A DNA stretch of 17,434 nt from a virus: UHGV virus genome UHGV-1770886, one strand, 5' to 3'. The notes under the pieces are model-generated. The model was not told where the DNA came from. It saw only the letters and a program-made list of their open reading frames with translations, and made no database searches. The stretch's first letter is position 1. Every line of letters begins with the position of its first letter. Both the position numbers and the translations under genes were made by a program. Below, in pieces: positions 13,610 to 16,966 of the stretch.

Positions 13610-13783
13610 CTAGATTAAATCAATCTTGATATCATAGCTTTCAAGACCAGTCATTTTTTCCCGTGCAGTAAACTGGATACTGGTAACTTCTTTCCCGGTC
13701 TTTTTCTTAAGCTCAATGATTTTTTTTGTTATATATTCAGAAATATCTGCTTCTGTTTTTGTTTTTAACTCTTCAATGTTCAT
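13610..13783 (-). CDS. gnsB: GnsA/GnsB-family small protein (57 aa)
   Basis: MNIEELKTKTEADISEYITKKIIELKKKTGKEVTSIQFTAREKMTGLESYDIKIDLI matches my recollection of E. coli GnsA/GnsB in length and motifs. AGAGGAA upstream; second of two tandem ATGs chosen for spacing. Symbol gnsB is from Qin-prophage-like synteny and is not verified. Confidence 0.55.
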   Translation of the reverse strand: MNIEELKTKTEADISEYITKKIIELKKKTGKEVTSIQFTAREKMTGLESYDIKIDLI

Positions 13784-13955
13784 CATTTCCTCTTTTAGTC
13801 TGTTATGACTGTCCTGGTACACAGTAGTGTCAATTATATGGAGCAAACGTATAAAAGATAAGATGAAACATCGCAATAATCAACATACGACGGTCTAAAT
13901 TTCACACAAACAGATAAAGATGATTATCATTTATTATCAATGCATTAGAATCAAA

Positions 13956-14250: not shown

Positions 14251-14457
14251 CTTCATTTTCACTTTCTTAAATCTAACGACAGATGGCTAACATTTAAGTA
14301 TTGTGAAATATTATCAAATGTAATCATCATTGATTTACAAAAGATACATTTTGCCCCGAAAGGATTTCTGTCAGAAACATCAAAAGATGATGTTCTATAC
14401 TGAGAACCATGGCAACACGGGCATCTAAAGTGAATATGGTTTGTAATATTTTCTACC

Positions 14458-14670
14458 TCAAAGTGCCACTACATGAACAGCTGCAGGGCCTTTAGGTCCG
14501 TTCTCAATACCAAATTCGACTTCCTGATTCTCAGTTAACGTTTTGAAATCGTTGCTCTGAATAGCTGAGAAATGCACAAACACATCTTTGCTACCATCTT
14601 TCGGCGTGATGAAACCAAAACCTTTTTCAGGGTTAAACCATTTCACTAAACCAGTCATTTTGTTAGACAT
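14458..14670 (-). CDS. cspI: CspA-family cold-shock protein (70 aa)
   Basis: [38 protein letters not shown]... carries the canonical RNP1/RNP2 cold-shock-domain motifs (KGFGFI, VFVHF). AAGG SD and csp-like leader (AAAGGTAATAA ATG). Paralog call cspI rests on synteny (csp next to Rz) and recalled sequence. Confidence 0.85.
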
Positions 14671-14814
14671 CATTATTACCTTTTGAAGAAGTTAGCCCTT
14701 GGGCAGAATGGTCCGAAAAAAAATATCAGAGAGAAAAACCAACAAGGAAATCTCAAGAGGTACAAATAATAAAATTATAACAATGACTGCTTCAGATAAT
14801 TTTGTAACAAACCA

Positions 14815-14850
14815 GAACACCATTAACGCATGATTAACCAACCATAGCAA
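14815..14850 (-). promoter_or_regulatory. candidate sigma70 promoter for the csp gene with ~145-nt leader
   Basis: Minus-strand TTGCTA (plus 14845..14850), 17-nt spacer, GTTAAT (plus 14822..14827), resembling the cspA promoter (TTGCAT / CTTAAT). AT-rich UP-like sequence upstream. Sequence inspection only. Confidence 0.3.
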
Positions 14851-15033: not shown

Positions 15034-16061
<1,028 letters not shown>

Positions 16062-16195
16062 GGATATTTATCAGGATTTATCGGTTTCTGAACCCTGGAT
16101 ATGTTAAGCATTCAGCCCGTCAGTGGTAGGACACTGGCGCTCTGGTTAAGGATTATGGGGGATGCTGGCTGAGCTACCCCATCTGAGGATTTGAT

Positions 16196-16435
16196 ATGCA
16201 AAAAGAAGTTTTTATCAATATTACAGCTGACTGCTCATCTCCTGCATCAACAGCAAAAGAAATTGAAGCTCTTAAATATATGATTACAGTAATATTTTCC
16301 GTATTGGACCAGAATGAAAAAAATGGAATCATTCATCAATTAAATGAACATGTAAATAATCCATATATCAAAAGCAATCTGGAAATGCTGCTACCAATGA
16401 AAGATATTGGAAAACCAACTGAAACAAAAGGCTAA
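16196..16435 (+). CDS. hypothetical 79-aa protein on the opposite strand; AT-rich cargo ORF inserted between YdfR-like gene and endolysin
   Basis: ATG 16196 with GAGGAT 7 nt upstream. Markedly AT-rich relative to flanking phage genes. Stop overlaps the stop of the convergent minus-strand ORF. A hairpin CGCGCC-N10-GGCGCG follows at 16482..16503. No family recognised. Confidence 0.45.
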   Translation: MQKEVFINITADCSSPASTAKEIEALKYMITVIFSVLDQNEKNGIIHQLNEHVNNPYIKSNLEMLLPMKDIGKPTETKG

Positions 16436-16746
16436 CAACCAGTAATCGAGTTATCTGAACTGTTAATTTTTATGGTATACCGCGCCTCTGAACAGGGGCG
16501 CGTTTCTGGCAACAGCTCGTCCCCTTCACATAACCCGGCAGCAACATCCAGGAAGACCTGTCTGATGCTCCTTCTGGCTGCAGCCTCATAAAACTCCAGC
16601 GCGGCACCTTCAACACGGTCCAGCGAGATGTCCAGGTCAAAAATTTCACCGTCAAAGCGTTCTTTGTCCTGTAATGCTAAAGTTACCGTAACTTTATTCT
16701 CAAAATTGCGGATCCCTTTCACAATCAGTTCATAGTTTTGAGTCAT
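16432..16746 (-). CDS. hypothetical protein, YdfR-like (between holin and endolysin)
   Basis: 104 aa. ATG 16746 with GGAGAG upstream, 4 nt after the holin stop. Same position and size as the ydfR gene between essQ and rrrQ in the K-12 Qin prophage, as I recall it. Sequence similarity not verified. Confidence 0.5.
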   Translation of the reverse strand: MTQNYELIVKGIRNFENKVTVTLALQDKERFDGEIFDLDISLDRVEGAALEFYEAAARRSIRQVFLDVAAGLCEGDELLPETRPCSEARYTIKINSSDNSITGC

Positions 16747-16750
16747 TGAA

Positions 16751-16966
16751 TTACTCTCCCCGTGCCGCCTTACGACGGTCCTCTCTGATTTTGAAATACA
16801 GGTTAGTCAGATATGTCAGCAGCCCAAACAGCAGACTCCCCAGCACGCCTATTGCCGCCCACTGAGACGGGGAAACCCTGTCCAGCAACTGCAGGAACCA
16901 GTAGCCCGTTCCCACCGCTGACGTGGTGTATGACACACCTGTTGTGATTTTTTCCATCTGGTCCAT
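16751..16966 (-). CDS. S: class II pinholin, phage 21 S-like, with dual start (antiholin/holin)
   Basis: 71 aa from ATG 16966: [71 protein letters not shown], near-identical in the C-terminal two-thirds to recalled S21. Met1 and Met4 (MDQM) mirror the S21 71/68 dual start. GGGAGA upstream. The track's 106-aa N-terminal extension would run through the upstream terminator. Confidence 0.85.

What the first reader, a model, noticed from the sequence alone, without database searches (positions are those of the whole stretch)
16062..16503. AT-rich opposite-strand ORF inserted inside the lysis cassette
The pinholin/YdfR-like/SAR-endolysin/Rz cassette is interrupted by a ~370-bp AT-rich segment. It carries a well-initiated 79-aa ORF on the plus strand (16196..16435), convergent with the YdfR-like gene and sharing overlapping stop codons. 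The endolysin lacks a good SD of its own downstream of this insert. This looks like a horizontally acquired moron with its own transcription, at a site where lysis timing could be affected. I cannot assign the 79-aa product to any family.
Basis: partly seen in the sequence, partly recalled or inferred. Interest (0 to 1): 0.7.

Follow-up and report, generated by a model that had tools for sequence, protein, structure and literature searches.

The report
Reverse-oriented accessory gene inside prophage lysis cassette
A small, AT-rich gene of unknown function sits backwards between two lysis genes of an E. coli lambda-like prophage; it is a genuine protein-coding "moron" and one of at least nine alternative small genes found at this same slot in related phages.

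Summary
Window 16062-16431 separates the YdfR-like gene from the SAR-type endolysin. It carries a plus-strand 79-codon ORF (16196-16435) with a GAGGA Shine-Dalgarno, 30% GC (GC3 22%) against about 50% in the flanks, and a stop codon overlapping that of ydfR.

The ORF is a real gene. Pairwise dN/dS is 0.17-0.37 among four diverged E. coli alleles, and 44-49%-identical homologues of similar length exist. At least one of these lies in a Klebsiella-like prophage.

The gene is a presence/absence polymorphism:
- In K-12 Qin, ydfR overlaps the endolysin start (ATGA).
- mEp460 and PhiR47_1 keep only a deletion scar holding the last 47 nt of the ORF.
- 102 of 5426 complete E. coli genomes carry the whole unit.

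The site is a multi-allelic slot. The same ~50-nt 5' sequence and hairpin precede at least nine mutually unrelated small ORFs in other lambdoid and Stx phages, each checked one with its own plus-strand terminator-like hairpin.

The product is a soluble three-helix protein (pLDDT 86). It matches PHROG 21218 and RefSeq WP_001168526.1, both "hypothetical", and no informative fold or family. Its own transcription is not shown: the only promoter candidate matches 7 of 12 consensus positions.

Verdict: a new member of a known kind (a moron). Function is unknown and interest is moderate.

The parts
16062..16076 (-). Relic of the last codons of an ancestral ydfR, directly upstream of the endolysin ATG
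   Evidence: It aligns with the K-12 Qin ydfR 3' end (..HHKYL*, ATGA overlap with rrrQ). In the window it contains stop codons.
16077..16105 (+). Conserved leader core with the only promoter candidate: TTTATC (16077-16082), 17 nt, TATGTT (16100-16105)
   Evidence: The same ~50 nt (ATGGATATTTATCAGGATTTATCGGTTyC..CCCTGGATATGTT) precedes every cargo class. It matches only 7 of 12 consensus positions and was not picked up by the scan. This is inference, not shown.
16118..16139 (+). 8-bp GC-rich hairpin (CGTCAGTG-N6-CACTGGCG) 13 nt downstream of the -10-like hexamer
   Evidence: Folds at -12.7 kcal/mol. It is present in the c79, c104, c91, c88, c98, c116, c233 and DUF1883 leaders. A hairpin of different sequence sits at the same place in the c90 leaders. 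There is no statistical covariation support.
16185..16189 (+). Shine-Dalgarno GAGGA, 6 nt before the ATG
   Evidence: Read directly from the sequence. It is conserved in all alleles.
16196..16435 (+). 79-codon gene (8.9 kDa, pI 5.6, no signal peptide or TM segment; three predicted helices at residues 16-35, 39-50 and 56-68)
   Evidence: dN/dS 0.17-0.37. PHROG 21218 at E 1.9e-57. RefSeq WP_001168526.1. Remote homologues P0010 and P0011 at 44-49% identity. AlphaFold model with pLDDT 85.7.
16317..16323 (+). A7 homopolymer inside the gene; A6 variants give a 48-aa truncated product
   Evidence: Alignments. P0007 (L012-L015) and P0006 are A6 frameshift forms.
16389..16435 (+). Last 15 codons plus stop, retained as a scar in phages that lost the rest of the gene
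   Evidence: mEp460 and PhiR47_1 keep this stretch joined to 16076. 344 of 5426 genomes carry that junction.
16481..16502 (+). Terminator-like hairpin (9 bp as folded, -16.3 kcal/mol) followed by TTTCT, lying inside the ydfR coding sequence
   Evidence: z-score -2.3. It is kept in all alleles, with a better T run (TTTTCC) in AR_0085, L010 and L012. The built-in scan missed it because the window has only 4 T in the 8-base tail.
16432..16746 (-). YdfR/DUF1327 gene, convergent with the 79-codon gene; stop codons overlap
   Evidence: Pfam PF07041, E 5e-40. The tail ..RYTIKINSSDNSITGC resembles the K-12 tail ..QYSFKIENPANK.
15528..16061 (-). SAR-type endolysin without a Shine-Dalgarno, uncoupled from ydfR by the insert
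   Evidence: Pfam PF00959. In K-12 Qin, rrrQ overlaps ydfR by ATGA.

Best explanation
Window ~16077-16435, together with the terminator-like hairpin at 16481-16502, is a moron. That is, it is a self-contained accessory gene unit placed against the direction of the phage late operon, between ydfR and the endolysin gene of a P21/Qin-type lysis cassette.

Shown:
- It encodes a real 79-residue soluble helical protein kept by purifying selection.
- It is compositionally foreign.
- It is present, absent or reduced to a deletion scar in otherwise near-identical phages.
- The same position, behind the same ~50-nt leader, holds at least eight other unrelated small ORFs in other lambdoid and Stx phages. 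The ydfR-R junction is therefore an exchangeable cargo slot.

Inferred:
- The unit is transcribed on its own from the weak but conserved TTTATC-17-TATGTT element in the leader, in the lysogen or otherwise independently of Q-dependent late transcription.
- The transcript starts just before a 5' hairpin, is translated from a strong Shine-Dalgarno, and ends at the hairpin inside ydfR.
- The protein, which has no enzyme-like or membrane features, most likely acts by binding another protein. A role in prophage-host or phage-phage conflict (exclusion or anti-defence) is more likely than a role in lysis itself.
- As a side effect, the insert breaks the ancestral ATGA translational coupling of ydfR and the endolysin.
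For: - Coding. Mean dN/dS is 0.25 in the ORF frame against 0.5-1.7 in the other frames. Full-length homologues at 44-49% identity keep the same length and helix pattern. The AlphaFold model reaches pLDDT 85.7 once these are added.
- Foreign composition. GC is 30% and GC3 22%, against about 50% in the flanks.
- Polymorphism. K-12 Qin ydfR and rrrQ overlap. The mEp460 and PhiR47_1 scar is. The intact unit is in 102 of 5426 genomes and the scar junction in 344.
- Portability. The same unit lies next to a different lysis cassette (holin_8/holin_3_7/M15_4) in L012-L015. The remote homologue P0011 lies in a Klebsiella-like prophage near the lysis and terminase genes, again counter-oriented.
- Slot. 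The shared leader is followed by different ORFs. Those assigned to PHROG or Pfam families are PHROGs 2411, 2572, 1853, 18136, 10490 and 25324, and DUF1883; a 233-aa ORF matched no PHROG or Pfam family. Those checked have their own plus-strand terminator-like hairpins.
- Expression signals. GAGGA lies 6 nt before the ATG. The terminator-like hairpin folds at -16.3 kcal/mol and is followed by a T-rich tail.
- Lysis still works. Phage Perceval carries the identical unit and forms plaques (PMC9928086).
Against: - No consensus-grade plus-strand promoter was found. The candidate matches 7 of 12 positions.
- There is no expression evidence. The ORF is missing from the LF82 RNA-seq tables because it was not annotated there.
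- The 5' hairpin has no covariation support.
- The conserved leader could instead be kept for endolysin expression on the other strand, or simply serve as a recombination linker.
- The allele found beside the other lysis cassette is mostly frameshifted at the A run (48 aa; P0007, 185 contigs and 351 index blocks). The C-terminal half may therefore be dispensable, or the gene may be decaying there.
Confidence: 0.7

Rival explanations
1. The protein is a lysis regulator, for example a modulator of the pinholin, of the SAR endolysin or of YdfR. Its position inside the cassette would then be functional.
For: All family members found lie beside lysis genes: between ydfR and R, upstream of a holin in L012, or downstream of Rz in L021 and L034. 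The insert also removes the ydfR-R coupling.
Against: It is oriented against the late operon, so it cannot be co-expressed with S and R from pR'. Near-identical phages without it (mEp460, PhiR47_1) and phages with unrelated ORFs at the same site are viable. The partner genes differ between contexts: P21-type pinholin with SAR lysozyme in one, holin_8 with an M15 peptidase in another. The protein has no transmembrane segment. Regions next to lysis genes are common moron sites (lambda bor; own knowledge).
Confidence: 0.1
2. The main product is the RNA or the act of transcription. Convergent transcription from the conserved leader would damp leaky read-through of the late operon into the endolysin and Rz genes in lysogens, and the ORFs would be secondary passengers.
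For: The leader is conserved whatever the ORF behind it. The transcript would run antisense into the ydfR 3' end and stop inside ydfR. About 40% of sampled leader-bearing junctions have no cargo ORF.
Against: Purifying selection acts on the protein sequence. Protein homologues occur in other genomic contexts without this leader. A strong Shine-Dalgarno is conserved. The leader has no strong promoter.
Confidence: 0.1
3. It is a decaying or non-functional remnant: an ORF that persists by chance in an AT-rich spacer.
For: Frameshifted forms are common: A6 giving 48 aa, and a 1-nt deletion giving 67 aa. 344 genomes carry only a scar. The gene is not annotated in phage Perceval.
Against: dN/dS is 0.17-0.37 over dS of 0.3-0.6. 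The frame stays open in four lineages that are 80-86% identical in protein. Homologues at 44-49% identity have the same length. The structure prediction is confident.
Confidence: 0.07

Closest known systems
Morons of lambdoid phages as defined for HK97/HK022 (Juhala, Hendrix et al. 2000; own knowledge), e.g. lambda bor/iss next to Rz
   Same: It is an extra gene present in some but not other close relatives. It is inserted between two genes of an operon, has a different base composition and is followed by its own terminator-like hairpin. It is counter-oriented to the late operon and lies in the lysis region. In Perceval and AR_0085 a bor/iss gene lies 1 kb away in the same orientation.
   Different: Bor/Iss is a lipoprotein with a known phenotype, whereas this product is soluble and uncharacterised. 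It sits inside the cassette, between ydfR and R, rather than after Rz. No good promoter is evident and expression in lysogens is untested.
Positional analogues: the plus-strand ORF between the YdfR-family gene and R in Stx and lambdoid phages (e.g. Stx2-converting phage 86 gp06 YP_794053.1, PHROG 1853; PhiR5_1 / 2H10 86-88 aa, PHROG 2572; 90-aa PHROG 2411)
   Same: Same slot, same orientation and the same ~50-nt leader with TATGTT and a hairpin (a different-sequence hairpin in the 90-aa PHROG 2411 leaders). The Shine-Dalgarno context is a similar GAGGATT in the 104-aa and 90-aa classes, and GAGGTG in the 86-88-aa class. Where checked (Stx2-86 gp06 and the 86-88-aa ORFs) they have their own terminator-like hairpin. 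Sizes are similar and all are of unknown function.
   Different: No detectable sequence relationship to the 79-aa protein. hhalign E-values are 0.03-0.9.
PHROG 21218 / RefSeq WP_001168526.1 'hypothetical protein'
   Same: Full-length match at E 1.9e-57. The protein is identical to the one PGAP annotates in LF82 and many B2 strains.
   Different: Nothing differs; this is the same family. It carries no functional annotation.
K-12 Qin ydfR-rrrQ junction
   Same: Same holin, ydfR, lysozyme and DUF2514 Rz cassette. The endolysin lacks a Shine-Dalgarno in both.
   Different: In K-12 the ydfR stop overlaps the rrrQ start (ATGA) with nothing in between. Here 370 bp and an opposite-strand gene intervene.

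Membership tests
Moron (Hendrix-type accessory unit) | Present in some and absent from other closely related phages, at a gene boundary | tested here: met
   K-12 Qin has an uninterrupted junction. mEp460 and PhiR47_1 (PhiR47_1 98% identical over 79% of the window) carry only a scar. The intact unit is in 102 of 5426 genomes and the scar junction in 344.
Moron (Hendrix-type accessory unit) | Base composition distinct from neighbouring phage genes | tested here: met
   ORF GC is 30.4% and GC3 22%, against 47-52% GC and 49-52% GC3 in ydfR and the endolysin.
Moron (Hendrix-type accessory unit) | Own terminator downstream | tested here: met
   Hairpin at 16481-16502, -16.3 kcal/mol, followed by TTTCT (TTTTCC in other alleles); fold z-score -2.3. 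Termination activity itself was not tested.
Moron (Hendrix-type accessory unit) | Own promoter upstream | tested here: inconclusive
   No plus-strand site reached the 9/12 threshold. The only candidate is TTTATC-17-TATGTT (7/12), conserved in all cargo classes.
Moron (Hendrix-type accessory unit) | Expressed from the repressed prophage | not testable with these tools
   The LF82 RNA-seq tables contain no row for this ORF.
PHROG 21218 | Full-length profile match | tested here: met
   E 1.9e-57, residues 1-79 against profile positions 1-79 of 79.
Holin / antiholin or other membrane lysis factor | Transmembrane segment(s), and co-orientation with the late operon | tested here: not met
   There is no sufficiently long hydrophobic stretch (GRAVY -0.28) and the model is a soluble three-helix protein. 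The gene is on the opposite strand to S, R and Rz.
Known anti-phage defence proteins (PADLOC-DB) | Profile match to a defence-system component | tested here: not met
   No hit at E <= 1 for this protein or for four other proteins tested (three cargo ORFs and the remote homologue P0011).

The most novel reading that the evidence does not exclude
The ydfR-endolysin junction of P21/Qin-type lysis cassettes may be a dedicated, fast-turnover cargo slot. In this reading, a conserved ~50-nt leader (weak promoter plus 5' hairpin) acts both as an expression platform and as a recombination linker. Lambdoid and Stx phages would swap small (65-120 aa, occasionally larger) soluble proteins behind it. These proteins, including the 79-aa one, would be effectors of phage-phage or phage-defence conflict expressed from the prophage.
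Probability: 0.25. Interest if true: 0.6.

Novelty: new member of a known kind. Interest (0 to 1): 0.4.

Why it matters
The gene is already in databases as a 'hypothetical protein', so its existence is not new. It was, however, left out of the annotation of the one cultured phage that carries it (Perceval) and therefore out of that strain's moron survey.

What this analysis adds:
- The ORF is under selection.
- It belongs to a small family found in E. coli and at least one Klebsiella-like prophage.
- Its location is a multi-allelic slot with a shared leader and at least nine alternative cargo genes, all of unknown function, including in Shiga-toxin phages.

If those cargo genes prove to be lysogen-expressed conflict or fitness factors, the shared leader gives a simple sequence handle (ATGGATATTTATCAGGNTTTA) for harvesting them. 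The insert also provides a natural experiment on how a SAR endolysin without a Shine-Dalgarno is translated once its coupling to ydfR is broken.

Tried and rejected
- Rfam. At gathering thresholds the only hit in the window is the cspA thermoregulator elsewhere. At E <= 10 over 15950-16600 there are only noise hits. No known RNA family is present.
- Promoter and terminator consensus scan. It found nothing on the plus strand.
- Protein family libraries. Pfam, NCBIfam and PADLOC gave nothing significant for the 79-aa protein. The best scores were DUF1514 at E 0.022 and IraP at E 0.09, both below cut-off.
- Homology among cargo alleles. By eye, the 79-aa and 86-88-aa proteins share a pattern (..ALK/ALR..hh..L(D/P)xxEK..). 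BLASTP found nothing, and hhalign gave E 0.03-0.09 with probability below 3%. I rejected this as unsupported.
- Covariation in the 5' hairpin. The observed values were no better than shuffles. RNAalifold on mixed leaders gave no consensus structure.
- Species-representative genomes (GTDB). Two scans found no relative.
- Literature. Searches for ydfR with endolysin and holin, for DUF1327, and for morons in lysis cassettes found nothing on this site.
- Sakai Sp5. S abuts R with no ydfR and no slot, so it offers no lead.
- Right boundary. I first took the terminator hairpin and the YdfR tail (CSEARYTIKINSSDNSITGC) to be part of the inserted module, because the same tail ends an unrelated ORF in L012. 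Comparison with the K-12 YdfR tail (QYSFKIENPANK) suggests it is native ydfR sequence that travelled with the unit.

Full report
**What is in the window.**
The window is the late region of a lambda/mEp460-like E. coli prophage. Tail, head and terminase genes lie on the minus strand, and the window is 97-98% identical to phages PhiR47_1 and mEp460 over 72-79% of its length.

At its right end the minus strand carries a P21/Qin-type lysis cassette:
- a class II holin (16751-16966, PF04971);
- YdfR/DUF1327 (16432-16746);
- a lysozyme with an Ala/Gly-rich hydrophobic N-terminus (15528-16061);
- a DUF2514 Rz-like protein (15034-15531).

**Checking the observation.**
- YdfR and the endolysin are 370 bp apart.
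- The interval holds a plus-strand ATG ORF, 16196-16435 (79 codons). GAGGA lies 6 nt upstream of its ATG.
- Its TAA shares two bases with the TAG of ydfR.
- GC falls to 30% over the ORF (third positions 22%), against 47-52% in the neighbouring genes.
- The endolysin ATG has no Shine-Dalgarno.

**Is the ORF a gene?**
Four diverged E. coli alleles were compared: the window, AR_0085 (L004), L010, and L012 with its frameshift repaired. They are 80-86% identical in protein.
- Pairwise dN/dS is 0.17-0.37 with dS of 0.3-0.6.
- Mean omega is 0.25 in the ORF frame. It is 0.5-1.7 in the other five frames, which also contain 3-7 stops.
- An exhaustive HMM search of 1.8 billion representatives added P0010 (73 aa), P0011 (74 aa) and P0015 (50 aa) at 44-49% identity. 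P0010 and P0011 are full-length; P0015 covers only the N-terminal ~50 residues. The conserved positions are shared: D12, C13, S18, E22-I23, L26-K27, F34, Q39, K42, Q48-L49.
- With these in the alignment, the AlphaFold model improves from pLDDT 65 to 86. It is a three-helix protein with helices at 16-35, 39-50 and 56-68.

PGAP already calls the gene (WP_001168526.1, 'hypothetical protein'), and it is PHROG 21218, unknown function. I conclude it is a real protein-coding gene.

**Presence and absence.**
- *K-12 Qin.* It has the same cassette with the ydfR stop overlapping the rrrQ start (ATGA) and nothing in between. Window 16062-16076 aligns with the last K-12 ydfR codons, so the extra DNA begins at about 16077.
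- *mEp460 and PhiR47_1.* These are the window's closest phage relatives and have only 55 bp between ydfR and R. That spacer joins 16076 directly to 16389 and so keeps the last 47 nt of the ORF.
- *Why the scar is a deletion.* Predicted helix 3 and the residues conserved in the remote homologues (..NLEMLL) run across this junction. I therefore read the mEp460 form as an internal-deletion scar of a unit like the one in the window, not as the ancestral empty site.
- *Frequencies.* Among 5426 complete E. coli genomes, 102 carry the whole unit and 344 carry the scar junction. Carriers include LF82, NRG857C, NC101 and SaT040.
- *Deposited phages.* Only Perceval, the LF82 prophage, has the gene, and it is not annotated there.

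**The site is a slot, not a single insertion.**
The first ~80 nt after the endolysin start recur in other prophages in front of different plus-strand ORFs:
- a 104-aa ORF in O104:H4 C227-11 and Stx2 phage 86 (PHROG 1853);
- an 86-88-aa ORF in PhiR5_1 and 2H10 (PHROG 2572);
- a DUF1883 protein in strain ARS-C301.

I scanned IMG/VR for the leader word ATGGATATTTATCAGGNTTTA.
- 52 have no cargo ORF;
- 33 carry a 90-aa ORF (PHROG 2411);
- 13 carry the 86-88-aa ORF;
- 8 carry the 104-aa ORF;
- 6 carry a 91-aa ORF (PHROG 18136);
- the rest carry smaller numbers of 233-aa, 116-aa (PHROG 10490), 98-aa (PHROG 25324) and DUF1883 ORFs.

Nearly all have R on one side, and most have a YdfR-family gene on the other. 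None of these cargo families has a known function. None matches PADLOC. Profile-profile comparison shows no significant relationship among them.

The leaders share ATGGATATTTATCAGGATTTATCGGTTyC..CCCTGGA-TATGTT. A GC-rich hairpin follows 8-14 nt later, and then a GAGGA-type Shine-Dalgarno in most classes. Those cargo ORFs I checked are followed by their own plus-strand terminator-like hairpin.

**Other contexts of the 79-aa family.**
- In L012-L015 the whole unit lies upstream of, and divergent from, a different lysis cassette (holin_8, holin_3_7, M15_4 peptidase). The unit there includes the relic CAT of the R start on one side and about 75 nt of ydfR tail on the other.
- In that context an A6 run replaces A7 (window 16317-16323), giving a 48-aa product, P0007. 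This is the most frequently recorded form, and strain TUM1881 has six copies.
- P0011 lies in Klebsiella-like prophages between the lysis genes and the HNH/terminase genes, again counter-oriented. It is absent from the closest deposited Klebsiella phage.

So the gene moves between phage backgrounds and is always a counter-oriented singleton in the late region.

**How it is probably expressed.**
- *Terminator.* A hairpin at 16481-16502 (-16.3 kcal/mol), followed by TTTCT, lies inside ydfR. It is kept in all alleles, with TTTTCC in most.
- *Promoter.* This is the weak point. The consensus scan finds no plus-strand promoter. The only candidate is TTTATC (16077-16082), 17 nt, TATGTT (16100-16105), which matches 7 of 12 positions. 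Its one merit is that it is invariant across cargo classes.
- *5' hairpin.* If that promoter is used, the hairpin at 16118-16139 would sit at the 5' end of the mRNA. It is conserved in sequence, and in the 90-aa class a different hairpin takes the same place. There is no covariation support.
- *Direct evidence.* The LF82 RNA-seq study that catalogued Perceval morons could not see this gene, because it was absent from the annotation used.

Independent transcription is therefore inference.

**What the unit does to the cassette.**
- The endolysin has no Shine-Dalgarno in K-12 either. There it is presumably translated by coupling to ydfR through the ATGA overlap (inference from the overlap).
- The insert removes that coupling.
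- In the window a 17-codon minus-strand mini-ORF (16111 to 16058) ends in a TGA that overlaps the endolysin ATG. It is not conserved in other alleles and is probably just the relic frame.
- Perceval, which carries the identical unit, forms plaques (PMC9928086), so lysis still works.
- Whether lysis timing changes is untested.

**Function.**

The available clues are its counter-orientation, its foreign composition, its patchy distribution, and its membership of a slot that turns over among unrelated small proteins. The most likely role is therefore an accessory (lysogenic-conversion or phage-conflict) protein that works by binding a partner.

Three rivals are less likely, for the reasons given under the rival explanations:
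- a lysis regulator;
- a unit whose point is antisense transcription;
- a decaying remnant.

**Comparison and novelty.**
By the classical criteria it is a moron. Presence/absence, composition and terminator are met. The promoter is inconclusive and prophage expression is untestable here. It is a member of PHROG 21218.

It is not new as a sequence, and the kind of element is well known. What appears to be undescribed, within the limits of the library searched, is the ydfR-R junction as a multi-allelic cargo slot with a shared leader.

I rate it a new member of a known kind, of moderate interest.

Noticed in passing
window 16058-16111 (minus strand): A 17-codon mini-ORF ([17 protein letters not shown]) has a TGA that overlaps the endolysin ATG (ATGA). 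It uses the same frame and last codons as the K-12 ydfR tail. Its ATG is missing in the AR_0085 and L012 alleles, so it is probably a relic rather than a conserved coupling device.
   Followed up: partly
window 16067-16084: The direct repeat ATTTATC(A)GG occurs twice, at the junction between the ydfR relic and the conserved leader. It could be a footprint of the original insertion or a protein-binding repeat.
   Followed up: no
L012-L015 (e.g. L012:2870-3330); E. coli TUM1881: The whole unit occurs beside a different lysis cassette (holin_8/holin_3_7/M15_4 peptidase) with an A6 frameshift giving 48 aa. The downstream minus-strand 143-aa ORF, which is unrelated to YdfR, ends with the YdfR tail CSEARYTIKINSSDNSIAGC. 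One genome has six copies.
   Followed up: partly
IMG/VR loci L057, L058, L062, L077, L084, L085, L088 and others: Leader-bearing junctions without cargo contain a direct repeat GTCTTCAG..GTCTTCAG. Some copies have exactly the intervening segment deleted. This suggests that short-repeat recombination removes or exchanges cargo.
   Followed up: no
L021:4001-4225, L033-L048: A 74-aa homologue at 44% identity lies in Klebsiella-like prophages, between the lysis genes and the HNH/terminase genes. It is counter-oriented and absent from the closest deposited Klebsiella phage (ST846-OXA48phi9.1).
   Followed up: partly
window 14412-14828 (minus strand): An Rfam cspA thermoregulator hit (RF01766, 110 bits) lies upstream of a CspI/CspB-like cold-shock gene (14458-14673). 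It is part of an AT-rich (30-40% GC) accessory stretch between Rz and the terminase region (about 12.9-15.0 kb), which also holds a GnsB-like ORF (13610-13876).
   Followed up: no
window 15084-15380 (minus strand): An ORF embedded in the +1 frame of the Rz-like gene has a lipobox-like LTSC motif. It is an Rz1/RzoQ-type outer-membrane spanin candidate.
   Followed up: no
LF82 NC_011993 1192006-1192245 / phage Perceval OV696612 46887-47256: The 79-aa gene is annotated by PGAP in LF82. It is missing from the Perceval record and from the original LF82 annotation used for the published moron survey, so its expression was never scored.
   Followed up: yes
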